The notes under the pieces: generated by a model | What the model saw: the letters and a program-made list of their open reading frames with translations, nothing else | Databases searched by the model: none | What the model was told of the DNA's origin: nothing | Program-made: the position numbers and the translations under genes | Assembly: GCF_964213995.1 (NCBI RefSeq) | Contig: NC_135821.1 | Span: forward strand, 4,774,001 to 4,838,000 | Reading direction: 5' to 3' | Origin: Mustelus asterias | Taxonomy: Eukaryota | DNA: 64,000 nt | In this document: one piece after another, positions 1,639-58,722 of the stretch | Numbering within the stretch: position 1 is the stretch's first letter | Layout of the letters: each line of letters begins with the position of its first letter

Positions 1639-1724
1639 TATTTATACCACTGGGACATCCTACATTCAAACTGGGAATGACATCACCAATGATGATTGAC
1701 AACCCCTGACAGCCAATCAGGAAT
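1639..1724 (-). promoter_or_regulatory. Ferritin A core promoter: TATA box, CRE-like TGACATCA, CCAAT boxes
   Basis: TATAAATA at 1639-1646 on the minus strand; module shared with genes B, C, D, F, G, H. Confidence 0.8.
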
Positions 1725-2053
1725 TCTTTCGATACCAATCAAGTAGCTTTTTCGGGTACCAACGTAATAAACGAACTCAAATTAACTTAGGGACAAAGTA
1801 AAAGGGGCGGCTCCCCAAAAGGAAGGGGGGAACAGCCCGAACCAAAATCAAAGTCGAAAGGAAACTTAAAACGTCAAACCAAAAGGTGATTATCGGGGTC
1901 GATAATCAGCCCCTGCGGCGCCCAGCGGTCGCGGAAGGCGTCAACCGCGCCCGTGGACACCGCATGCTCCCTCTCCAGAGACACCTGGCCGCGAATGTAG
2001 CCGCGGTAGAGGGGCAGACAGTCGGGATGGACGGCCCCGTCGATCGCCCGCTA
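1725..2053 (-). mobile_element. 5'-truncated Tx1 retrotransposon inserted in the ferritin A CCAAT box
   Basis: Near-identical to about 47680-48000; flanked by a 16-bp direct repeat ACAGCCAATCAGGAAT (1709-1724 and 2054-2069). Confidence 0.9.
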
Positions 2054-7391: not shown

Positions 7392-7510
7392 AGAAAGTTC
7401 TAGAACTGCCCCTTTCTAACACAACTTGTATTTATACCACTGGGCCATCCTGCATTCAAACTGGGAATGACATCACCAATGATGATTGACAATCTTTGAC
7501 AACCAATCAA
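7392..7510 (-). promoter_or_regulatory. Ferritin B promoter/5' UTR: HSE-like triplet, TATA box, CCAAT
   Basis: AGAAAGTTCTAGAAC at 7392-7406; TATAAATA at 7429-7436 on the minus strand. Confidence 0.7.
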
Positions 7511-7868
7511 GTAGCTTTTTCGGCACCAATCAAGTAGCTTTTTCGGCACCAATCAAGTAAACGAACTCAAATTAACTTAGGGACAAAGTAAAAGGGGCGG
7601 CTCCCCAAAAGGAAGGGGGGAACAGCCCGAACCAAAATCAAAGTCGAAAGGAAACTTAAAACGTCAAACCAAAAGGTGATTATCGGGGTCGATAATACAC
7701 CCCAGCCCCTGCGGCGCCCAGCGGTCGCGGAAGGCGTCAACCGCGCCCGTGGACACCGCATGCTCCCTCTCCAGAGACACCTGGCCGCGAATGTAGCCGC
7801 GGTAGAGGGGCAGACAGTCGGGATGGACGGCCCCGTCGATCGCCCGCTGCCTGGACCAGGAGCAGGTT
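7502..7868 (-). mobile_element. 5'-truncated Tx1 retrotransposon inserted in the ferritin B CCAAT box
   Basis: Matches the 3' end of the 45508-48016 element; tail of 23-bp repeats ACCAATCAAGTAGCTTTTTCGGC; flanked by TTGACA(A/G)CCAATCA. Confidence 0.9.
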
Positions 7869-16005: not shown

Positions 16006-16091
16006 TATTTATACCACTGGGACATCCTGCAGTCAAACTGGGAATGACATCACCAATGATGATTGACAATCCCTGACAGCCAATCAGGAAT
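16006..16091 (-). promoter_or_regulatory. Ferritin C core promoter (TATA, CRE-like, CCAAT)
   Basis: TATAAATA at 16006-16013 on the minus strand; shared promoter module. Confidence 0.8.
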
Positions 16092-16662
16092 TCCTTCGAC
16101 ACCAATCAAGTAGCTTTTTCGGCACCAATCAAGTAAACGAACTCAAATTAACTTGGGGACAAAGTAAAAGGGGCGGCTCCCCAAAAGGAAGGGGGGAACA
16201 GCCCGAACCAAAATCAAAGTCGAAAGGAAACTTAAAACGTCAAACCAAAAGGTGATTATCGGGGTCGATAATACACCCCAGCCCCTGCGGCGCCCAGCGG
16301 TCGCGGAAGGCGTCAACCGCGCCCGTGGACACCGCATGCTCCCTCTCCAGAGACACCTGGCCGCGAATGTAGCCGCGGTAGAGGGGCAGACAGTCGGGTC
16401 GGATGACCCCCTCGACCGCCCGCTGCCTGGACCCTGTAGGTGGCAAGCTTTGCCAGGCCCAGGAGCAGGTTCACAAGGAGCTCATCCTCCTTCCCCGCCC
16501 CCCCTCCGCACCGGTGCCTGTAGATCAGGAGCGTGGGGCTGAAGAGCAAACAAAACATCAATAAAAAGTTACTATGCTAATTAAAAAGGGAGTGCAGCCT
16601 TTGACATTCAACGTAGACATGATTCACAGGCTCTTCAAGATTACAAAAAGGGACCCAGAGTC
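16092..16662 (-). mobile_element. 5'-truncated, apparently chimeric Tx1 retrotransposon in the ferritin C CCAAT box
   Basis: Same 3' junction as in gene A (CAGCCAATCAGGAATTC.TTCGA.ACCAATCAAG); the distal part resembles the 58052-58722 subfamily (LAKLATYRVQ). Confidence 0.85.
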
Positions 16663-26484: not shown

Positions 26485-28657
<2,173 letters not shown>

Positions 28658-28717
28658 CTTCACTATTACTATCACCTAGTAAGTTCTAGAATTGCCCCTT
28701 TCTAACACAAGCTCTTG

Positions 28718-28808
28718 TATTTATACCACTGGGCCATCCTGCATTCAAACTGGGAATGACATCACCAATGATGATTGACACTCTCTGACAGCCAATCAGG
28801 AATCTGCC
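28718..28808 (-). promoter_or_regulatory. Ferritin D core promoter (TATA, CRE-like, CCAAT)
   Basis: TATAAATA at 28718-28725 on the minus strand; shared promoter module. Confidence 0.8.
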
Positions 28809-28989
28809 TTTTTTTAACGTAGAACAGGAGGGTCCCTGATTGGGCCATCAAATAGGACTCAATCGAGAATTTCATTTGTTTATTACAAAAACAGTTACAA
28901 ATATTCAAAATACAAATATGAAAGATACATTACCAATGCCATCCATTTATCAATAATCTACAATTACTATCTTCTATTTAGGAATGGTT
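28809..28989 (-). mobile_element. Unidentified retroposed insert with A-tail next to the ferritin D CCAAT box
   Basis: Starts with a T run (A-tail on minus); flanked by a 14-bp near-perfect repeat ATCAGGAATC(T/A)GCC at 28795-28808 and 28990-29003. Confidence 0.65.
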
Positions 28990-29010
28990 ATCAGGAATCA
29001 GCCATCAATC

Positions 29011-29772
29011 AAACTACTCAGTTAATGGAAGGGTGTTGGTGAGAGTTACAGAACAAAGAGATCTAGGGGTACATGTTCATAGCTCCTTGAAAGTGGAGTC
29101 ACAGGTGGACAGAGTGGTGAAGAAGGCATTCGGCATACTTGGTTTCATCGGTCAGAACATTGAATACAGGAATTGGGACGTCTTATTGAAGTTGTACAAG
29201 ACATTGGTAAGGCCACACTTGGAATACTGTGTGCAATTCTGGTCACCCTATTATAGGAAGGATATTATTAAACTAGAAAGAGTGCAAAAAAGATTTACTA
29301 GGATGCTACCAGGATTTGATGGATTGAGTTATAAGGAGAGGCTGGATAGACTGGGACTTTTTTCTCTGGAATGTAGGAGGCTGAGGGGTGATCTTATAGA
29401 GGCCTATAAAATAATGAGGGGCACAGATCAGCTAGATAGCCAATATCTTTTCCCAAAAGTAGGGGAGTCTAAAACTAGAGGGCATAGATTTAAAGTGAGA
29501 GGGGAGAGATACAAAAGTGTCCAGAGGGGCAATTTTTTCACACAGAGGGTGGTGAGTGTCTGGAACAAGCTGCCGGAGGTAGTAGTAGAGGCGGGTACAA
29601 TTTTGTCTTTTAAAAAGCGTTTAGACAGTTACATGGGTACGATGGGTATAGAGGGATATGGGCCAAATGCAGGCAATTGGGATTAGTTTAGGGGTTTAAA
29701 AAAAAAAGGGTGGCATGGACATGTTGGGCCGAAGGGCCTGTTTCCATGCTGTAAACCTCTATGACTCTATGA
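29011..29772 (+). mobile_element. CR1/HER1-like LINE 3' fragment inserted in the ferritin D promoter
   Basis: ORF 29033-29686 is an open CR1 ORF2 C-terminus; promoter sequence CCATCAATC|CAGGC is split by the insert; tail CTCTATGACTCTATGA. Confidence 0.92.
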
Positions 29773-29992
29773 AACCAGGCCCCAGTTAACAAAGGAGAGA
29801 GGATGGGGGAGGGTGCAATTCAGCCAATTAGAATAAAAGCAAATTACTGTGGATGCTGGAATCGGAAACAGAAAATGTTGGAAAATCTCAGCAGGTCTGA
29901 CAGCATCTGTGGAGAGAGAATAGAACCAATGTTTCGAGTCCGGATGACCCCTGCTCAGTGTTGAATTAGTGTAGTGATTATCTCACTATCTA

Positions 29993-31967: not shown

Positions 31968-33711
31968 TGATTATGCCAACGTGAGGGTAAAGTACATTAG
32001 AAAGGTACTTGCCCTACTAAAGCAGGATCTTGTTAATGACACCTGCAAGACAGTCTATACCCTAGGTGCCCACTGACTGCAGACGGCACCAGGTGTACTG
32101 ATGGATGCCTGCCACACACGCCCTCTGTAGAGGTCACCCAGGGATCCACAAGATTGTGAAAGAGAAGTAGGCAGTCAGAGTGACACCACTCCCCCAGCCC
32201 TCACCCCAACCCCATGAGCCTAAGCTGTCCTAGAATGAGAAATTGCTGATTCCGTCAGGACTGGCAGGTCCGTAGGAAGTTCCTTCGACTTTGACCGAAG
32301 AACATGATTGGTCATTTTTGCTTCCCATGTGCTGCAGTTTTGCACTTGCCTGCTCTAATCATCCAATCAGAATGTTCCCTGGTCCAAATGATCATATCCA
32401 CTGCATTCCATTCTTGATTGGTGCCCTCTAAGGAGCTTGTAGTTCTGATTGGGTACTGGGAGTGGTGTAGCATCAATTGGAATGTGAGTCTTGGTATTTA
32501 AGATGAGTTGGTCCCACTTGCATCAATGTCAGAGTCTAGTGAGTTAGAATGGCTTCCCAAGTGCAGTAGAACTACCACAAGGACTGTGAGGATGCTGTTA
32601 ACAAGCAGATCAACCTGGAGCTCTATTCCTCCTATGTTTACCTCTCCATGGTGAGCTTTGTTTTTTTTCAAGAAACTTAGTGTTTTTGAATAACCTGTTG
32701 GTCTGTATACAATGAATGCATTGGTTTTATAAAAGTTCTAATGTAGTGCAACTTATTTTATGGTCAGTAATAAACCTCTTTTGCAGTGATTATAACACCT
32801 GTATCATCTATAATAATCTTTAAGCTGTATGATTGTTTTCACCAGAGTCAGAACTATGACCCTGTTGACCTCTTGTTTCTAACATTGCCATTGAGTTAAA
32901 TATATTTGCACAATATTGTAATCATAGAATCCCTACTGTGCAGAAGGTGGCCATTTGGCCCATTTGAGTCTGCACTAACCACAGTCCCAGCCCTGTAACC
33001 CCATGTATCTACCCTGCTAGTCCCCCTGAAATTAAGGGGCAATTTAGCATAGCCAGTCCACGTAACCCGCATCTTTGGTCTGTGGGAGGAAACTCTCCCA
33101 GACATGGGGAGAACATACAAACTCCACAGTGGCCTGAACTGGGAATTTAACCCTGACTGAGGCAGCAGTGCTTGCCACTGTTGCCCTTGTAATTGGTAAC
33201 TGGTTTTACATGGCCAGCTTTCATTAAGCATCTGTAATGGGTTGATACAAAATTGATACAATGGTTGAAAGAGGACTGTCGATGCCAGGTATAAAAGAAA
33301 AAGTGTAAGCTAGAAGCAGGAGGAGGCCATTCGGCCCTTCAAGCCTGCTCCACCATTCATTTTGATCATGGCAGATCATTAAATTTAATATCCTAATCTT
33401 GACTAGCCCTGAGCTAAAGCTAATTGGGTTCTAGGAGATGGTGTCTCTGGTGTCCACTTTGCAGAAGGGCTTTGAGTATGATGGTGAGATATTCTCCTTG
33501 TGATACCAGATGTGAATTGCAGGCAGGTACTTGGGGCAAATAATCCCATTTTTAAAATGAGTGAGATAGGGGATTGTCAATAAATTTGTTCAAGGGCCTT
33601 GGAATATAAATTCCCTTTTTTTTAAAAAATTGAACAAGTGGACGCTTGCCTGATAGGAAAGAATCAGTGGGAGCTGCTTGAAGTAATGTAGGTCGTGGGG
33701 CTTGACTAGTT

Positions 33712-34050
33712 TTAGTCATTTGTGGGACATGGGTGTCACTTGCTGTTCAGCATTTGTTGCCCTTGGTTGGCAGTTGAGTCAGCCACGTTGGCTGTGGCTC
33801 TGGAGTCACATGTGGGGTAGACCAGGTAAGGACGGCAGATTCCCTTCCCTGAAGGACATTAGTGAACTAGATGGATTTTTCTCAATCAACTATGATTTTA
33901 TGGTCATCAGTAGATTCTTAATTCCTGATTTTTAGTGAATTCAAATTCCACCATCTGCTGTGGCAGGATTCAAACCTGGGTCCCCCAGAACATGAGCTGA
34001 GTTTCTGGATTAATAGTCTAGCGATAATACCGCTAGGCCATCGCCTCCCC
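33712..34050 (-). mobile_element. SacSINE1-like DeuSINE in intron 1 of E
   Basis: Head GGGGAGGCGATGGCCTAGCGG and Deu-type core on the minus strand. Confidence 0.75.
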
Positions 34051-35053
34051 TGTAACTGCTGAAGCAGTATTTTATTCAGTGTGTAAATAGGTGTTGGTGA
34101 TGGAAGACTGACCTGAGGCGATTACACAAAGAATAATATTGACTTGCGTATGAAATGCATTGTAACTGGTCTCCTACAACATGAGGACTTTACAATATGC
34201 ATTGAATCTCCAGTGCTGAGGTAGTGAATGGGTAACTTGTTTGTGAAGCTGTGTTTGTATTTTGGCTGTAAATCAGATCAAACCTGACTCTTCCATTTGT
34301 CTCTCTGCAGTCTGCTTACTTTGACCGGGATGATGTTGCCCTGAGTCACTTTGCTGAGTTCTTCAAGGAGCAGTCACATGAGGAATGGGAACATGCTGAG
34401 AAACTGATGGAATTCCAGAATAAACGTGGAGGCAGACTCATCCTGGAGGATGTCAAGGTTGGATTTGATGGATATCTGCATCCCCTTGGACTGACTTTAA
34501 TCCAATAATTAGTGTGATGCACTTGTGTGTTTTGACTTCACTAAATGAACTGTCTGCCATTCCCCTCTTCCAGAAGCCAGAGCAGGATGAGTGGGGCAAT
34601 GGTCTGGAGGCCATGCAGAGAGCTCTGCAGATGGAGAAGAATGTGAACCAGAGTCTGCTGGATCTGCACAAACTCTCCTCTGGGAACACCGACCCTCATG
34701 TAAGTCACTGATGCTGTAATCTGGGCTACTGGATAAATTAATAGTGAAATGTTACACAAGTTTTCTGTATCCAACTGACATTAGGGTGGTTCTTGGTCTT
34801 TATCAGGGGATTGGTGATGGAGAGGGGGACAATGTTGTCCCAGTAATATGTGGTAGGTCATGTTTGACCAATCTCAGAGTTTTTCAAGGAGGTGACCAGG
34901 AAAGTGGATGAAGGGAAGGTGGTGGATGTTGTCTACCTGGATTTCAGCAAGGCCTTTGACAAGGTCCCTCATGGGAGGTTAGTTAGGAAGGTTAAGTCGC
35001 TAGGTATACATGGGGAGGTAGTAAATTGGATTAGACACTGGCTCAATGGAAGA

Positions 35054-35990
35054 ACACAGTAAGAAGTTTAACAACACCAGGTTAAAGTCCAACAGGTTTA
35101 TTTGGTAGCAAAAGCCACACAAGCTTTCGAAGCTCTAAGCCCCTTCTTCAGGTGAGTGGGAATTCTGTTCACAAACAGAGCTTATAAAGACACAGACTCA
35201 ATTTACATGAATAATGGTTGGAATGCGAATACTTACAACTAATCCAGTCTTTAAGAAACAAAACAATGGGAGTGGAGAGCATCAAGACAGGCTAAAAAGA
35301 TGTGTATTGTCTCCAGACAAGACAGCCAGTGAAACTCTGTGGGAGTTACAAATAGTGTGCCATGAACCCAATATCCCGGTTGAGGCTGTCCTCGTGTGTG
35401 TGGTACTTGGCTATCAGTTTCTGCTCAGCGACTCTGTGCCGTCGTGTGTCGCGAAGGCCGCCTTGGAGAACGCTTACCCGAATATCAGAGGCCAAATGCC
35501 TGTGACCGCTGAAGTGCTCCCTAACAGGAAGAGAACAGTCCTGCCTGGTGATTGTCGAGTGGTGTTCATTCATCCATTGTTGCAGCGTCTGCATAGTTTC
35601 CCCAATGTACCATGCCTCGGACATCCTTTCTTGCAGTGTATCAGGTAGACAACGTTGGCCGAGTTGCAAGAGTATGTACTGTGTACCTGGTGGATGGTGT
35701 TCTCACGTGAGATGGTGGCATCTGTGTCGATCTGGCACGTCTTGCAGAGGTTGCTGTGGCAGGGTTGTGTGGTGTCATGGTCACTGTTCTCCTGAAGGCT
35801 GGGTAGTTTGCTGCGGACAATGGTCTGTTTGAGGTTGTGCGGTTGTTTGAAGGCAAGAAGTGGGGGTGTGGGGATGGCCTTGGCGAGATGTTCGTCTTCA
35901 ATGACATGTTGAAGGCTCCGGAGGAGATGCCGTAGCTTCTCTGCTCCGGGGAAGTACTGGACAACGAAGGGTACTCTGTCCACCATGTTC
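35054..35990 (-). mobile_element. Penelope-like retroelement, 3' part with GIY-YIG endonuclease
   Basis: ORFs 35570-36103 and 35346-35669: RVPFVVQYFPG...PLLAFKQP.NLK..IVRSKL...CKTC...CNSANVVYLIHC...WYIGET...L..RMNEH-like; one frameshift. Confidence 0.9.
35118..35154 (-). ncRNA. Minimal type I hammerhead ribozyme motif in the Penelope terminus
   Basis: Minus strand CAC-CTGAAGA-AGGGGCTTAGAGCTTC-GAAA-GCTT-GTG: CUGANGA and GAAA cores, helix I CAC/GTG, palindromic helix III. Confidence 0.7.
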
Positions 35991-36440
35991 CTTTCCTTTT
36001 CCTTTCCTTTGATAGAGGTGTATAAGATTTTGATGGGTATAGATAGTGAATGCAAGCAGGCTTTTTCCGCTGAGGCTAGGGGAGAAAAAAAACCAGAGGG
36101 CATGGGTTAAGTGTGAAAGGAGAAGTTAAAAGGGAATATTAGGGGGGGCTTCTTCACGCAGAGAGTGGTGGGAGTGTGGAATGAGCTGCCGGATAAAGTG
36201 GTAAATGCAGGGTCACTTTTAACATTTAAGAAAAACTTGGATGGGTTCATGGATGAGCGGGGTGTGGAGGGATATGGTCCAAGTGCAGGTCAGTGGGACT
36301 AGGCACAAAATGGTTCGGCACAGACAAGAAGGGCCAAAAGGCCTGTTTCTGTGCTGTAATTTTCTATGGTTTTCTAATCCTGGGATTTAAGCACTTTTTT
36401 CCTCATTTGGATTTCCTCCAATAGGTGGTACAATGCTTGA

Positions 36441-36584
<144 letters not shown>

Positions 36585-37061
36585 TGAGAATGGCATGGGA
36601 GAGTACCTGTTTGACAGGCTCACTCTGGGGGAGTGACTGAATTCACAGCACAGGATAAGCATGTTATTTGTATAATTGACATCTTTGGAGCTGTCAATTT
36701 GTGGCATTGTGGGAATAAACAAATCATTTGTAATGGAGTGAATGTTGCCTGTGTTGTAATTACATCCAGTAATGCAGTCACTGACATACCAGTAGCATTG
36801 TGGATGGTCTAACTTGTTCTTTGTACATTAAATTTGACACCATTTCAAGACCAGTGTCTTGGTTGGGAGGAGTTGTCAGATCTGAGCCTAGCTGGCTGGA
36901 ACGGGATCTGTTGATAAATATTCTCTGCTTTTTGCCCCAAGAGCAAATCTTTCCAAGCACTTGCTGTGAAATAGCTTTTTACTGCCATTCAGTCTCGATA
37001 TAGACCAGGCTTACGGGAGGTCTTGGCTCTTGGTACTAAAGGGAATAACAATGATGAGTTA

Positions 37062-39711: not shown

Positions 39712-40160
39712 TTTTGACCGACCAAATAAACAAAATCAAATTAACTCAGGGACAAATTAAAAGGGGCAGCTTCCGAAAGGAGGGAATCCACCCGAAACAA
39801 AAGACAAAGTGGAAAGGAAACTTAAAACATCAAATTAAAATGCGATTAAAGTGGTCAATAATGCACCCCAGCTCCTGCGGTGCCCAGCGGGCACGGAAGG
39901 TGTTGACTGTGCCCTCGGACACCGCATGCTCCCTCTCCAGGGACACCCAGCCGCAAATGTAGTCGTGGTAGAGGTTCAGATAGTTGGGTTGGACTACACC
40001 CTCGGTCGCCCGCTGCCTGGACCTGTTTATGGTGAGTTTGGCCAGACGCAGGAGCAGGTTCACGAGGAGGTCTTCTGTCTTCCACCCCCGCAGCCCCTGT
40101 CCGCACTGGTGTCCATAGATCAGGAGCGTGGGACAAACAAAATATCAACAAAAGGTGAAA
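39712..40160 (-). mobile_element. Tx1 3' fragment (diverged subfamily) upstream of ferritin F
   Basis: ORF 39830-40063 NLLL.LAKLTINRSRQRA...VSLEREHAVS.G.V..FR.RWAPQ.LGCIID. Confidence 0.85.
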
Positions 40161-40871: not shown

Positions 40872-41035
40872 TCTGATTGGCTCTGGCTCCCACCCCCTCC
40901 CCCCCTCCCCCCCACACCCTGTGATAATTGGAGGCTGGATTGATGGCAGATTCCTGATTGGCTGTCAGGGATTGTCAATCATCATTGGTGATGTCATTCC
41001 CAGTTTGGATGCAGGATGTCCCAGTGGTATAAATA
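40872..41035 (+). promoter_or_regulatory. Ferritin F promoter (uninterrupted, empty site): three ATTGG boxes, C-rich tract, CRE-like, TATA
   Basis: CTGATTGGCT twice, CATTGGTGATGTCA, TATAAATA at 41028-41035. Confidence 0.8.
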
Positions 41036-43915: not shown

Positions 43916-46597
43916 ACTGATTGTGGGGGATGAGCTTTGTGTTCAAGTTTGTATAATTGAGATCTCTGGACCTGTGGTTTTAGAGCGATTGAGCCAGAGG
44001 TGCATTATGGGAATGAACAAACTAAATAAACATTTCATAATGGAGTGAAGCTTGGTTTTAATTATTTGCAGTCACCAATGGACCAGCTACGTTGACAGTC
44101 TAACTCCAAGATACCCTTTTTTTTTTGGAAGGCACCAGATAAATGCTTAATCGTTTGCATCATTTGAACACCAGTGCTAGATTCTCTCCTTGGGAGGAAT
44201 TGTCAGATCTGAGCCTTGCTGGCTGAATCCAGATTTGTTGATGTCCATTGTGTCTCTGCCTTTTGCACCAATGGCAGCTCAAATCATTCAGACCAGTAGC
44301 TGCTGTCAAATGAGTTGTTTTAAATCTTTGTCTGGGTGGATAGTTTCCACAGAATTATTAGTGAAATGCTTTGGAACTGAACCTGCCCACTTGTTGCCCT
44401 GCTAAGCCTTTTCAGTATAGTACTAGATAACAGCAATGGGGTCTGGGAGGTCTCTGCCTTCCTCATACTGAAGGGAAGTACAACTGGGCTTTGGTCAATA
44501 TTGCCTGAAATGTTAGACTTGCCTCAAGGGAGGGCAATATGGGGATTCCTGGAGTAAAAGTCTTCAAACTGTAGTTGATTGAATAGAGTCAATAAATATC
44601 ACAAACCTGTGACTTAAACTCCACACCATCATTTAATCTCATTGTGCATTCATACCAAATAAGAATCATCAATTGCTTTCTCCCAAGCCTAAAAATGACA
44701 GCATTCATTTTCAACTCAGTTGAGAATGTCAATAAGGGCAATGACATCAGATGTGGAGGATTATTTTTAACCAGTGATTTATGATTAGGAATGCGCTGTC
44801 TGAAAGGATGGTGGAAATACATTCAATAATAAATTGACTGACGTGGGAAATGGACACAGTGGTTATCACTGCTGCCTCACAACACCAAGGTCCCAGGTTC
44901 AATTCCAGCCTTGGGTTACTGTCTGTGGGGAATTTGCATGTTCTCGTGTTTGCGTGGGTTTCCTCCCACAGTCCAAAGATGTGTGGATTGGGCATGCTAA
45001 ATTAATCCTAGTGTCAGGGGATGAGCAGGGTAAATGGATGGGGTTATGGGAATAGGGCTGGGGTGGGATTGTGGTCGGTACAGACCTGATGGGCTGAATG
45101 GCCTCCTTCTGTACTGTAGGGATTATATGGATATAAATGTGTTGCTATGATCCAATCAGCTTTTCTTGTCACACGGGGAGGCTGAATCAAGGGGAATGAA
45201 TGACCTCATATGGTCTTCACTTGAAATTGCCAAGTTTTGGGTTTGACCTATCGATATAATAGAGCATCGACCATCTTGTCCTACATTTTAGGGCAGGTTA
45301 TCACTCGTTCAACCACTGCCCCTATCGCCAAAGGATCTACTTTAATGTCTGCAATGAGGAAATATAGGTGTCCAAAGGACAGGCTCTTGATGATCCATGC
45401 TTCAGATAAAATCTTTCCTCGACTCTCATAACAGACTTGAGATTTGGAGAAGGGGAAATATTGGACCCACAGCCCATAAATTTGCTTGGGGGGAGTTTAC
45501 CTCATTGAGGCCTGTCTGCTTACGCCGACGACGTGCTCCTCATGTTCACGGACCCGGCTGACCTGCGGAGGATGCGAGAATGCCAGGCGGTGTACTCCGC
45601 CGCGTCCTCCGCCAGGATCAACTGGGCCAAGTGCTCCGGACTCCTGGTCGGTCCGTGGGAGACGGACCCCCTTCCGGAGGAGCTCAGGCCTTTCACCTGG
45701 AGCAGGACCAACCTCCTCTACCTGGGGGTCCATCTCTGCCCAGCCGAGGAATCCTGGCCGGCGAACTGGCGGGAGTTGGAGCCCAAAGTCTCCGCCCGCC
45801 TGGGTCGCTGGACAGGACTGCTCCGAGTGCTGTCCTACAGGGCGCGCGTTCTCGTCATAAACCAGCTGGTCGCCTCCATGCTGTGGTACCGGCTGGTCAC
45901 TTTGGCCCCTCCCCCTGGCTTTGTCACCGATATGCAGAAAGCCCTCGTGCGGTTTTTCTGGGACAACCGACTGCACTGGGTCGCTGCCGAGGTGCTGCAT
46001 CTCCCGATTGAGGAGGGCGGACAAGGTCTGGTGTGCCTCCGCACGCAGGTGGCGACCTTCCGCCTCCAGACACTGCAGCGATACCTTTACGTCGAGCCTC
46101 CTCCACGATGGCGTGCGATGGCGACGTATTTTTTCCGCCAGTTGCATGGCCTCAATTACGACGTGCAGCTCCTGCACATCAACCTGGGGCGTATTCCGAC
46201 CTCCCTGCGGGAGTTGCCCGTCTTTTACCAGGACCTCCTCACGGTCTGGAACACTGTCGCCTCGCGACGCAGCTCTCCCCCGTCAGGAGTAGCGGCTCTC
46301 GTGCGAGAGCCGCTGCTCAGGAATCCGCACCTCCAGCCTTACGACTTCAGGTGGCTGGCGGAGAGGAGGGCCGTGGACGCCGGGGTGACCAGGATCGGGG
46401 ACGTGCTGGATGGCGGAGGAGCGGGCTGGATGAGCCCCGACGTGCTGGCTGAGCGCGCAGGGGTGGCCGTCTGGCGCGCGGCCAAAGCCATCCAAGACCT
46501 TAGGACAGTCGTGCTCGGCCCCGAGTGCACACGCGGTCTGGAGGCGGCACAGGCGTGCGGTGGGATCCCGCCCGAGCGTTCCCCTGCTCGGACGGAA

Positions 46598-47114
46598 TTA
46601 GTTTAACAACACCAGGTTAAAGTCCAACAGGTTTATTTGGTAGCAAAAGCCACACAAGCTTTCGGAGCTCTTAGCCCCTTCTTCAGGTGAGTGGGAATTC
46701 TGTTCACAAACAGAGCTTATAAAGACACAGACTCAAATTACATGAATAATGGTTGGAATGCGAATACTTACAACTAATCAAGTCTTTAAGAAACGAAACA
46801 ATGTGAGTGGAGAGAGCATCAAGACAGGCCAAAAAGATGTGTATTGTCTCCAGACAAGACAGCCAGTGAAACTCTGCAGGTCCACGCAACTGTGGGAGTT
46901 ACAAATAGTGTGACATGAACCCAATATCCCGGTTGAGGCTGTCCTCGTGTGTGCGGAGCTTGGCAATCAGTTTCTGCTCAGCGACTCTGCGTTGTTGTGT
47001 GTCGCGAAGGCCGCCTTGGAGAACGCTTACCCGAATATCAGAGGCCGAATGCCCGTGACCGCTGAAGTGCTTCCCAACAGGAAGAGAACAGTCTTGCCTG
47101 GTGATTGTCGAGGC
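46598..47114 (-). mobile_element. Penelope 3' fragment nested inside the Tx1 ORF2
   Basis: Near-identical to about 35065-35560; 7-bp direct repeat GACGGAA (46591-46597, 47115-47121). Confidence 0.9.
46653..46689 (-). ncRNA. Minimal type I hammerhead ribozyme motif in the Penelope terminus
   Basis: Minus strand CAC-CTGAAGA-AGGGGCTAAGAGCTCC-GAAA-GCTT-GTG; helix II GGGGC/GCTCC. Confidence 0.7.
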
Positions 47115-48609
47115 GACGGAAGTCCACATTGGCCCGAAGCCTAGACCTCCCCCCCCCAGGTCAGGTGCCCCACTGCGTGTGCCGCCTCGCGGAAATGCCC
47201 TCCATGCCCTTTTCCACCGCGCGGAGGCGTTTCCTGTACGGGCTGCTGCTGCACACCTTTCACTACCGCGTCCTCGCCCGTCGCCCGGATACACCATGGC
47301 GGGCCTTGTTGCCGCTGGGCGGCGGAGGTCCCCAGTGGAGGTCCCTCTACGGAGGGATCTCCCCCAATTATCTCGGGGACCTGGGGTGGAGGGTGCTGCA
47401 CGCAGCAGTGCCGTACAACCGTAGGTTTTTCCGGTACACGGGCTCCCGAGACTGCCCTTTCTGTGGCCTTGTGGAGTCCGTGGACCATGTCTACGTTCTG
47501 TGTTTTAGGCTGCACACCCTTTTTGGTTTCCTCAAACACCTTTTACTGATGTTTTGTTTGCACTTCAGTCCCACGCTCCTGATCTACGGGCACCTGGTGC
47601 GGAGAGGGGCGGGTCGGGATGCCGACCTCCTCGTGAACCTGCTCCTGGGCCTGGCGAGACGCGCCATCAATAGGTCCAGGCAGCGGGCGATCGACGGGGC
47701 CGTCCATCCCGACTGTCTGCCCCTCTGCCGCGGCTACATTCGCGGCCAGGTGTCTCTGGAGAGGGAGCATGCGGTGTCCACGGGCGCGGTTGACGCCTTC
47801 CGCGACCGCTGGGCGCCGCAGGGGCTGGGGTGTATTATCGACCCCGATAATCACCTTTTGGTTTGACGTTTTAAGTTTCCTTTCGACTTTGATTTTGGTT
47901 CGGGCTGTTCCCCCCTTCCTTTTGGGGAGCTGCCCCTTTTACTTTGTCCCTAAGTTCATTTGAGTTTGTTTACTTGATTGGTGTCGAAAGAAATACTTGA
48001 TTGGTGTGAAAAGAAATACCTCATTGGAACATTAGTGCTCAGTTCCACTGATTCACTTTCATTTCTCCCCCAACTTGTTCAGGTTTTTTTTATTCATTCA
48101 TGGGACATGGGCGTCGCTGGCTACGCCAGCATTTATTGCCCATCCCTAGTTCCCCTTGAGAAGGTGGTGGTGAGCTGCCTTCTTGAATCGCTGCACTCCA
48201 TGTGCTGTGAGTTGACCCACAATGCCATTAGGGAGGGAATTCCAGGATTTTGACCCAGCGACTGCGAAGGAACGGTCGATATATTTCCAACTCAGGATGA
48301 TGAGTGGCTTGGAGATTTGGTTTGTAGATTCCCTGCGGATTATCTAGTGCAGGTTTGGTGCCTTCAACTGCTGTGGTCAGTGTCACAGATAGTTCTGGAT
48401 GTGACAAAAGATGCATCAATTCTCCAAGAGATGGGGCAACATCGACACAGTTGTGTTCAACACCATCCACACGGCTCAATTTCCATTTGCAAACTCATTA
48501 AACTGATATTATTGAGGCTAGAATTTGGAGAATAGATGCCATCCGCTTGAGGAAAGTCAAAGAAAGCAACGTTAATTGTAGCAACAACAAGGTTCCATTA
48601 AAAAATAGG

Positions 48610-58051: not shown

Positions 58052-58722
58052 AATCTTTTTGACAAACCAAATAAACTAACTCAAACGAACTCAGGATAAA
58101 TTAAAAGGGGCAGCTCCCAAAAAGGAGGGGAACCGCCCAAAACAAAAGACAAAGTGGAAAGGAAACTTAAATCATCAAATCAAAATGTGATTAAAGGGGT
58201 CAATAATGCGCCCCAGCCCCTGCGCTGCCCAGCGGGCATGGAAGGTGTTGACAGTGCCCCCGGGCACCGCATGCTCCCTCTCCAGTCATACCCAGCCGTG
58301 AATATAGCCAGGGTAGATGGGCAGACAGTCGGGTTGGACGTCCACCTCGGTCACTCGCTGCCTGGACCCTGTAGGTGGCAAGCTTTACCAGATCCAGGAG
58401 CAGGTTCACGAGGAGGTCCTCCTCCTTCCCCACTCCCCTCCGCACCGGGTGTCCGTAGATCAGGAGCGTGGGGCTGAAGAGCAAACAAAACATCAACAGA
58501 AGGTTTGTGAGGAAACTAAAAAGGGAGTGCAGCCTATCACATTGAACGTAGACATGGTCCACGGACTCCACAAGGTTGCAAAAAGGGAAGGTTGCTTGGG
58601 AGTCTGGGAACCAATTTAACCTTCTGTTGTGCAGGACTGCTGTATGCACCACCCTCCACCACAGGTCCCCAAGATAGTGGGGGAGGATCCCTCCGCAGAG
58701 GGACCAGAACGATACCAGCACT
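58052..58722 (-). mobile_element. Tx1 3' fragment immediately upstream of the ferritin H promoter
   Basis: ORF 58200-58760 YLGDLWWRVVH...FPFCNLVESVDHVYVQC.RL...FSPTLLIYGH. Confidence 0.87.

What the first reader, a model, noticed from the sequence alone, without database searches (positions are those of the whole stretch)
28795..29780. Ferritin D promoter hit by two other retro-insertions at the same hotspot
Seen: a 181-bp A-tailed insert unrelated to the Tx1 3' UTR (28809-28989) duplicates ATCAGGAATC(T/A)GCC, which overlaps the target used in A, B and C, and is in the same orientation. The insert carries its own CCCTGATTGGG. A CR1 fragment lies a few bases beyond the duplication. All four minus-strand genes are therefore interrupted within about 20 bp of the same CCAAT box. 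Inference: either a second family uses the same endonuclease specificity, or this promoter is open chromatin in the germline.
Basis: partly seen in the sequence, partly recalled or inferred. Interest (0 to 1): 0.7.

Follow-up and report, generated by a model that had tools for sequence, protein, structure and literature searches.

The report
Chimeric retro-insert in shark ferritin promoter
A small jumping-gene insertion in a shark ferritin promoter is real but is two different repeats joined together, and the join hints that more than one retrotransposon family homes in on the same CCAAT-type promoter word; the neighbouring CR1 copy is probably a bystander.

Summary
Confirmed: a 181-bp insert (28809-28989) lies between 14-bp target duplications (one mismatch) in the ferritin D promoter. 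A CR1 begins 7 bp further on, in the opposite orientation. Paralog F shows the empty site.

Corrections: (1) Only promoters are split; B, C and D keep intact reading frames. (2) The D junction lies 6 nt from the Tx1 junction (+17 versus +11 from the CCAAT box). (3) The insert is not one element. Public shark reads show two multi-copy repeats: a 5'-truncated, AATAAA-bearing 3' end (about 28870-28989) and a 43-bp piece of a promoter-like repeat (28822-28864), which supplies the CCCTGATTGGG. No read was seen across their join. In other copies that repeat reads CAATC then AGGGA at the join, like the ferritin target.

Best reading: a LINE copy sitting at a CAATCAGG site was read through, and LINE end plus flank retroposed to another CAATCAGG site. 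The A7 'tail' may be internal priming. Sequence preference is favoured over plain open chromatin: an off-promoter site is hit and distal CCAAT boxes are not. The CR1 is at chance level (P about 0.19). The donor locus and the LINE family were not identified.

The parts
28556..28657 (-). Ferritin D exon 1 (exons 2-4 at 27341-27487, 26932-27057, about 26485-26637); intact 175-aa frame
28718..28725 (-). TATA box of gene D, on the gene side of the insertions
   Evidence: sequence
28773..28796 (+). GATTGAC - 12 bp - CCAAT composite (DECA-CCAAT-like; published geometry is 11 bp); present in 7 of 8 promoters (not E)
   Evidence: geometry
28792..28802 (+). 11-bp word CCAATCAGGAA; the Tx1 copies at A and C join directly after it (+11)
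28795..28808 (+). Proximal copy of the 14-bp target site duplication
28809..28815 (-). A7 run; no poly(A) signal closer than 55-63 nt, so possibly an internally primed and slipped A-tract rather than a true poly(A) tail
28822..28864 (.). Piece 1: fragment of a multi-copy promoter-like repeat (CCAAT boxes; a TATA-like word in the loose ends); holds a 10-of-11 match to the Tx1 target word at 28843-28833 (-)
28865..28879 (.). Join between the two repeats; no read or contig seen across it
   Evidence: depth dip; 37 reads and 12+9 contigs break off at 28864
28870..28989 (-). Piece 2: 5'-truncated 3' end of a multi-copy repeat, 24% GC, last codons and stop, AATAAA at 28884-28879; probably a LINE 3' end, family unknown
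28990..29003 (+). Distal copy of the target site duplication
29011..29772 (+). 5'-truncated CR1 (ORF2 C-terminus, tandem tail), head-to-head with the insert; 90-94% identical to three other window copies; 5' edge uncertain by about 3 bp
29775..29836 (+). Displaced distal promoter of D, only 70-74% like A/B/F
1724..2052 (-). Context: young Tx1 at promoter A, junction +11, 15-bp TSD
7503..7867 (-). Context: young Tx1 at promoter B; the proximal box is replaced by the element's own target-like tail unit
16091..16653 (-). Context: Tx1 at promoter C, junction +11, distal target deleted, distal part closer to an older subfamily
45508..48016 (+). Control: long Tx1 copy (T) outside any ferritin promoter, at CCAATGAGGTA, junction +11, 10-bp TSD
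40930..40973 (-). Control: empty site in promoter F

Best explanation
The D insert is one target-primed reverse transcription event by an L1/Tx1-type LINE other than the young A/B/C/T family. SHOWN: TSD, polarity, 5' truncation of a multi-copy 3' end, and a 43-bp piece of a second multi-copy, promoter-like repeat between that end and the A-run. INFERRED: a donor copy of the LINE had inserted at the CAATCAGG-like word of that repeat and was transcribed past its own AATAAA into the flank (3' transduction). Its endonuclease nicked the ferritin promoter after +17. The nicked end primed in the A-rich flank, helped by a 4-nt match, with slippage giving A7. Copying stopped after about 180 nt, and a second cut 14 bp away gave the TSD. 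Site choice rests mainly on DNA sequence near CCAAT(C/G)AGG, with family-specific or loose offsets, and the site is tolerated because the core promoter stays on the gene side. The CR1 is a separate, probably unselective insertion.
For: 14-bp TSD and empty paralog. All listed loose ends at 28989 go on into one common upstream sequence (13 reads in X24, 4 contigs in X1), i.e. 5' truncation. Piece 1 breaks off at 28864 in 37 reads and 12+9 contigs, whose consensus goes on AGGGA after CAATC; the chance of CAATCAGG within 12 nt of a random junction is 0.0002-0.001, of CAATC alone 0.013-0.016. The insert's best match to the 11-bp target is 10 of 11; 10 of 5000 shuffles reach that. Of 8 genomic CCAAT(C/G)AGG sites in the window 5 carry a junction at +11 to +17 (B counted from its distal copy); of 13 other CCAAT(C/G)(A/G)G sites none does (read by eye). 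One occupied site (48027) is outside any ferritin promoter. Neighbouring family is Tx1-like: RVT_1, homolog cluster with a member named 'transposon TX1'. CR1 background: P about 0.19 that one of 66 repeat blocks falls in a 25-bp zone at one of 8 promoters.
Against: The junction offset differs: +17 at D, +11 for Tx1, +6 or +11 at the inferred donor join (the +11 reading has 3 mismatches to the repeat's consensus). No donor locus was seen: no listed record spans 28865-28879. The 3' flanks of other piece-2 copies were not visible (104 loose-end rows hidden), so n = 2 sites, one of them inferred. The consensus at 28864 agrees only 0.63-0.71. Piece 2 is not shown to be a LINE: no match to its last codons in the final 40 residues of 178 fetched proteins. 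No canonical poly(A) signal near the A-run. The paralogous sites are not independent. For the four young CR1 copies alone P is 0.012, so a CR1 bias is not excluded.
Confidence: 0.45

Rival explanations
1. Chromatin or protein tethering: NF-Y/TALE-bound, bent or nucleosome-free DNA next to CCAAT boxes in germline or early embryo draws several unrelated retroelements (Tx1, the piece-2 family, CR1) to the edge of the factor's footprint; DNA sequence is not read by the endonucleases.
For: GAnnGAC-12bp-CCAAT in 7 of 8 promoters and nowhere else in the window at 11-12 bp; such composites are bound by maternal TALE/NF-Y at zebrafish blastula (PMC6023610). Junction offsets scatter (+11, +17, +23/24). 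The inferred donor site is also promoter-like. L1 endonuclease reads DNA structure more than sequence (PMC1950540 abstract passage).
Against: 0 of 4 distal CCAATCAGAG boxes in the same promoters are hit; copy T sits off-promoter at the same +11 register; spacing is 12 bp, not the canonical 11; no chromatin data; F, G and H are empty.
Confidence: 0.25
2. Template switch or trans-mobilisation: a Tx1-type particle nicked the ferritin site, began on an RNA of the promoter-like repeat and jumped to the 3' end of a second RNA. The chimera arose at D and no donor locus exists.
For: No record across the join; 5 nt at the join (28865-28869) fit neither repeat well; the resident Tx1 family shows target-like tail units and template jumps (B and C).
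Against: The join falls at a target-like word in the right polarity, which a random switch would not predict; the nick is not at +11; D's pieces differ from the majority letters at several places and by a 7-bp gap, whereas the resident Tx1 is about 99% homogeneous.
Confidence: 0.15
3. DNA-repair capture: a staggered break at the promoter was patched with DNA copied from a locus that already held both repeats (templated insertion), without reverse transcription.
For: Short A-run without a nearby poly(A) signal; 4-nt match between target end and the repeat's continuation; 8-9-nt words shared by insert and target.
Against: A clean 14-bp TSD, a homopolymer exactly at the 3' junction and polarity identical to the Tx1 copies are TPRT hallmarks; CTGC is common (0.5% per base).
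Confidence: 0.1
4. Coincidence or assembly error: unrelated random insertions, or a chimeric contig.
For: No listed record confirms D's junctions in 4 of 4 runs; run X1 holds D's intron 1 with 0 differences, but its word share (0.41) equals intron plus exon only (231 of 583). CR1-group elements are 22-34% of elasmobranch genomes (PMC13343379).
Against: Misassembly does not make TSDs; flanks rejoin into a promoter colinear with six paralogs; X1 may be another haplotype or a sister species, and the tool warns that holes prove nothing.
Confidence: 0.05

Closest known systems
Target-specific Tx1-clade non-LTR retrotransposons (Tx1L, Keno, Kibi, Koshi, Tx1-Mar; PMC4494074, parts 1 and 3 of 5 read)
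   Same: Repeated insertion into a multicopy target; several families sharing one target at nearby positions (Tx1-Mar and SINEU in Mariner-N4_AMi); some Tx1 families target other repeats, including LTR elements.
   Different: Targets named in the parts read are snRNA/5S genes, microsatellites, satellites and transposons, not a CCAAT box of a protein-coding gene family; the D insert's own family is not shown to be Tx1 and its junction is 6 nt off.
L1 3' transduction (PMC6425141, passages read)
   Same: Element 3' end followed by tens of nt of foreign flank, an A-run and a TSD of similar length (16 nt and a 44-nt transduction in their example).
   Different: No downstream poly(A) signal, only A7, no internal poly(A), no 5'-TTTT/AA target, and no donor traced.
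Factor-tethered non-LTR element TRE5-A of Dictyostelium (PMC3159450, abstract and outline read)
   Same: Insertion at a near-fixed distance from a promoter element of a multicopy gene family, leaving the gene working.
   Different: That is Pol III and TFIIIB/C; here a Pol II CCAAT promoter, and tethering is untested.
DECA-CCAAT composite element of TALE/NF-Y/Sp2 (bioRxiv 10.64898/2026.02.16.706105, introduction and passages; PMC6023610, passages)
   Same: GATTGAC upstream of CCAAT in the same orientation.
   Different: Spacing 12 bp rather than 11; binding not tested in shark.

Membership tests
Target-specific Tx1 retrotransposon (the D insert) | Tx1-type ORF2 | not testable with these tools
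   Only six codons and a stop lie in the window; no match in the last 40 residues of 178 fetched proteins
Target-specific Tx1 retrotransposon (the D insert) | More than 20% of copies flanked by one target type (criterion of PMC4494074) | tested here: inconclusive
   3' flanks of other copies were not among the rows shown; two sites only, one inferred
Target-specific Tx1 retrotransposon (the D insert) | Same nucleotide-exact junction as the resident Tx1 family | tested here: not met
   +17 versus +11 in A, C and T
Target-specific Tx1 retrotransposon (the D insert) | Target site duplication and 5' truncation | tested here: met
Tx1 clade (resident A/B/C/T family) | RT-bearing ORF2 related to Tx1/L1 | tested here: met
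   RVT_1 below the curated cut-off on a partial domain; homolog P0067 (E 2e-18) clusters with a 'transposon TX1' protein; homolog P0101 matches L1 ORF2p structures; no tree built
L1-type 3' transduction | Element 3' end followed by non-element flank before the A-run | tested here: met
   Two separate repeats in that order
L1-type 3' transduction | Termination at a downstream poly(A) signal with a poly(A) tail | tested here: not met
   Nearest AATAAA 63 nt and AATGAA 55 nt from an A7 run
L1-type 3' transduction | Donor locus with the same join | tested here: inconclusive
   None listed in 4 runs; no genome held
L1-type 3' transduction | 5'-TTTT/AA endonuclease site | tested here: not met
   Site reads CTGCC/ATCAA (L1 consensus)
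SINE or composite non-autonomous family | Many copies of the whole 181-bp unit | tested here: not met
   Reads break at 28864; depth falls from 59 to 11 in X24
Target-biased CR1 | Other copies at the same word | tested here: not met
   0 of 3 other young copies have CCAAT(C/G)AGG in the 50-bp flanks printed; 1 of 3 has a bare CCAAT (about 0.45 expected, hand calculation)
DECA-CCAAT composite | GAnnGAC-11bp-CCAAT | tested here: not met
   12 bp in all 7 promoters; 12 bp is tolerated in the paper's structure models
DECA-CCAAT composite | TALE/NF-Y occupancy, open chromatin | not testable with these tools
   No ChIP or ATAC data

The most novel reading that the evidence does not exclude
Several non-LTR retrotransposon families of sharks, of different ages, converge on NF-Y/TALE-bound CCAAT elements of multicopy Pol II promoters as a safe haven - by reading the factor-bent DNA or by contact with the factor - and shuttle CCAAT-bearing promoter pieces between such sites by 3' transduction. 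This would be a Pol II, vertebrate counterpart of TFIIIB-guided targeting.
Probability: 0.12. Interest if true: 0.8.

Novelty: new variant of a known kind. Interest (0 to 1): 0.45.

Why it matters
Known site-specific Tx1 elements use RNA genes, microsatellites and transposons. A core promoter word of a protein-coding gene family, reused by at least two families, would be a new class of target, and it gives a direct test of sequence reading versus chromatin tethering in a vertebrate. The insert also carries a new, inverted CCAAT box into the promoter while pushing the native distal boxes about 960 bp away, a concrete route by which retroposition rewires paralogs of a large ferritin family. If the flank survey is negative, the D insert is an ordinary transduction-like insertion.

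Tried and rejected
No genome was held, so the genome-wide BLAST was not possible. Exact-pattern scans found 0 matches in metagenome contigs and viral contigs; these collections are not expected to hold shark DNA. The promoter-like repeat's TATA-side motif has 0 matches in the window at up to 3 mismatches. Rfam: 3 matches, all far below gathering scores; no IRE or snRNA. Six look-ups of earlier findings gave nothing bearing on this. Run X9 (organism C) has no depth over the insert while holding exon and promoter; contigs show presence only, so no weight is given. The old Tx1 copies near 39.7 kb and 58.1 kb share a 7-nt flank, but both lie upstream of plus-strand paralogs beside a similar short repeat and may be one duplicated event; not counted. 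A reading with the nick at +11 and an 8-10-bp TSD (the last 6 bases copied from the donor flank) needs two changes towards the target's letters; judged unlikely, not excluded. A single event making insert and CR1 together would leave only 7 bp of duplex between them; judged unlikely.

Full report
SETTING. The window is a tandem ferritin cluster with eight exon-1 copies: A-D on the minus strand, E-H on the plus strand. Public runs holding part of the stretch include ones labelled 'shark metagenome'; I did not try to name the species. B, C, D, F, G and H have open 173-176-aa frames with GT-AG introns. E has a stop and a frameshift. A's exons 2-4 lie outside the window.

THE OBSERVATION. The two 14-mers at 28795-28808 and 28990-29003 differ at one base, cannot be extended, and enclose 181 bp. 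Removing the insert and one copy gives the promoter of F. A T7 run opens the insert and AATAAA lies on the minus strand at 28884-28879, so its polarity is that of the Tx1 copies at A, B, C. The insert has no relative in the window. The CR1 starts about 7 bp after the second copy, on the plus strand, head-to-head with the insert, and the promoter resumes after its tail. Counting the first C of CCAAT as +1, the 3' junctions of Tx1 copies A, C and T follow +11 (B is ambiguous), the D insert follows +17 and the CR1 sits at +23/24. 'Within about 20 bp' holds. 'Genes interrupted' does not: TATA, the upstream composite and the CCAAT box stay on the gene side.

WHAT THE INSERT IS. I laid 4 of the 24 listed runs on 28400-29035 at 82% likeness. 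In raw reads of organism B (X24, about 4 in 100 of the run, 184 reads laid) D's intron had no depth, yet the insert had depth 41-59 over 28818-28861 and 18-30 over 28884-28971, with 11 between. That dip is what overhang from both sides would give (my estimate). In X1, up to 26 and 20 different contigs carry variants in the two parts. The insert is therefore made of two multi-copy repeats.

Piece 2 (about 28870-28989, 24% GC) goes on beyond 28989 into one shared sequence in 13 reads and 4 contigs. It is a 5'-truncated 3' end with last codons, stop and AATAAA. I could not name it: none of 178 fetched proteins matches its end, so 'LINE' is inference and a multicopy gene's 3' end is not excluded.

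Piece 1 (28822-28864) continues on the gene side into a conserved sequence with a TATA-like word (27+11 reads, agreement 0.95-0.96). On the other side it breaks off at 28864 in 37 reads and 12+9 contigs, whose consensus (agreement 0.63-0.71) begins AGGGA after the window's CAATC. The tool hid 104 loose-end rows, 262 pieces and 53 variant rows, so the 3' flanks of other piece-2 copies were not seen.

MECHANISM. The order element end, foreign flank, A-run, within a TSD, is that of a 3' transduction (PMC6425141, passages). The inferred donor join lies at a CAATCAGG-like word in the same polarity as the Tx1 junctions. By chance that is 0.0002-0.001 for the 8-mer and about 0.015 for CAATC alone. 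The A-run has no poly(A) signal within 55 nt, and the repeat's continuation has CTGC then TTT in register with D's CTGCC then T7 (by eye). I infer internal priming with slippage rather than a true tail. The resident Tx1 also carries target-like tail units. Donor, nick chemistry and order of events are inferred, not shown.

SEQUENCE OR CHROMATIN. Of 23 CCAAT(C/G)(A/G)G rows in the window, 10 read on as AGG. They make 8 genomic sites (two rows are A's duplication, one lies in the insert), of which 5 have a junction at +11 to +17. None of the other 13 does, including 4 distal promoter boxes (by eye; Fisher P about 0.003 by hand, overstated because paralogs are related). Copy T, with a 10-bp TSD, occupies a site outside any ferritin promoter at the same +11 register. 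A, B, C and T are about 99% alike in their shared core while the distal flanks of A and B are 90% alike, which favours separate young insertions, though gene conversion could have spread them. These points favour sequence. For chromatin: the box is part of a GATTGAC-12bp-CCAAT composite in 7 of 8 promoters. The published geometry is 11 bp, with 12 tolerated in models (bioRxiv 10.64898/2026.02.16.706105, introduction and passages). Such sites are bound by maternal TALE and NF-Y at zebrafish blastula (PMC6023610, passages). The offsets also scatter. Tx1L endonuclease nicks almost only at its exact site (PMC1950540, passages), so +17 argues against the identical enzyme.

THE CR1. With 66 repeat blocks in the window, the chance that one falls in a 25-bp zone at one of eight promoters is 0.19; for the four young CR1 copies alone it is 0.012. 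The first figure fits a post hoc observation better. None of the other three copies has the AGG word in the flanks printed; one has a bare CCAAT beside its 3' end, which is chance level. CR1-group elements fill 22-34% of elasmobranch genomes (PMC13343379, passages). I treat it as a probable bystander.

AGAINST MY READING. No listed record confirms D's junctions; depth is 0 at 28994-29035 in all four runs. X1 holds D's intron with no difference, but none of its laid contigs has D's promoter letters (for example 28781 differs in 7 of 7), and its word share, 0.41, equals intron plus exon alone (231 of 583). The D haplotype may be polymorphic, X1 may be a sister species, or records were filtered. 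D's distal promoter is only 70-74% like A, B and F while the proximal part is 94-96% alike, so conversion may have rewritten the proximal TSD copy.

WHAT IS KNOWN. Tx1 families target U2/U5 snRNA and 5S genes, microsatellites, satellites and transposons, sometimes several families in one target (PMC4494074, parts 1 and 3 of 5; supplements not read). TRE5-A is guided by TFIIIB/C (PMC3159450, abstract). Searches for Tx1 + CCAAT + retrotransposon + target site gave 0 papers; the listings showed no title on a CCAAT- or ferritin-targeted element. Repbase, Dfam, the unread supplements and subscription papers were not searchable and may already hold these families.

VERDICT. The insert is a chimera that most likely records two successive insertions at CAATCAGG-like promoter words by an unnamed family (0.45); tethering or open chromatin remains live (0.25). 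New variant of a known kind; interest 0.45, limited by one locus, no donor and no independent junction read.

Noticed in passing
window 45508-48016 (+): Long Tx1 copy with a 10-bp TSD at CCAATGAGGTA outside any ferritin promoter, split by a 510-bp repeat at 46600-47112 that also occurs at 35065-35559 (looks Penelope-like from recall; no Pfam hit). Best internal control for the Tx1's sequence specificity.
   Followed up: partly
window 1724-1760, 7503-7560, 16091-16135, 47970-48016: The young Tx1's 3' end is a tandem of about 22-23-nt units, each holding a target-like CCAATCAAGTA; in B this unit replaces the native box.
   Followed up: partly
window 28400-28810; Ferritin exon 1 and promoter are multi-copy in the laid runs (X24 depth about 44 and 29 where the single-copy intron has 0), so the family is much larger than the eight genes here.
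   Followed up: no
window 28658-28717 and paralogs: No iron-responsive element was found in the 5' UTR by Rfam; these ferritins may be IRE-less.
   Followed up: partly
window 32549-36633 (+): Gene E is a pseudogene (stop in exon 1, frameshift in exon 4) with an unrelated CCAAT-rich promoter and no Tx1 insertion.
   Followed up: no
window 28833-28869: Piece 1 holds two inverted CCAAT-like words 17 nt apart; with the loose-end letters they form a 10-bp inverted repeat. Identity of this promoter-like repeat (LTR U3 or gene promoter) is unknown.
   Followed up: partly
window 29775-29836 versus 28705-28802: Sharp drop in paralog identity across the hotspot (94-96% proximal, 70-74% distal for D), suggesting conversion tracts that end at the insertion site.
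   Followed up: partly
window 39717-40157 and 58057-58705 (-): Older Tx1 copies upstream of F and H share the 3' flank GATTGAT and a neighbouring short repeat; possibly one duplicated insertion.
   Followed up: partly
window 16400-16653: The Tx1 at C switches from the young subfamily to an older one near 16400, a recombinant or template-switch product.
   Followed up: partly
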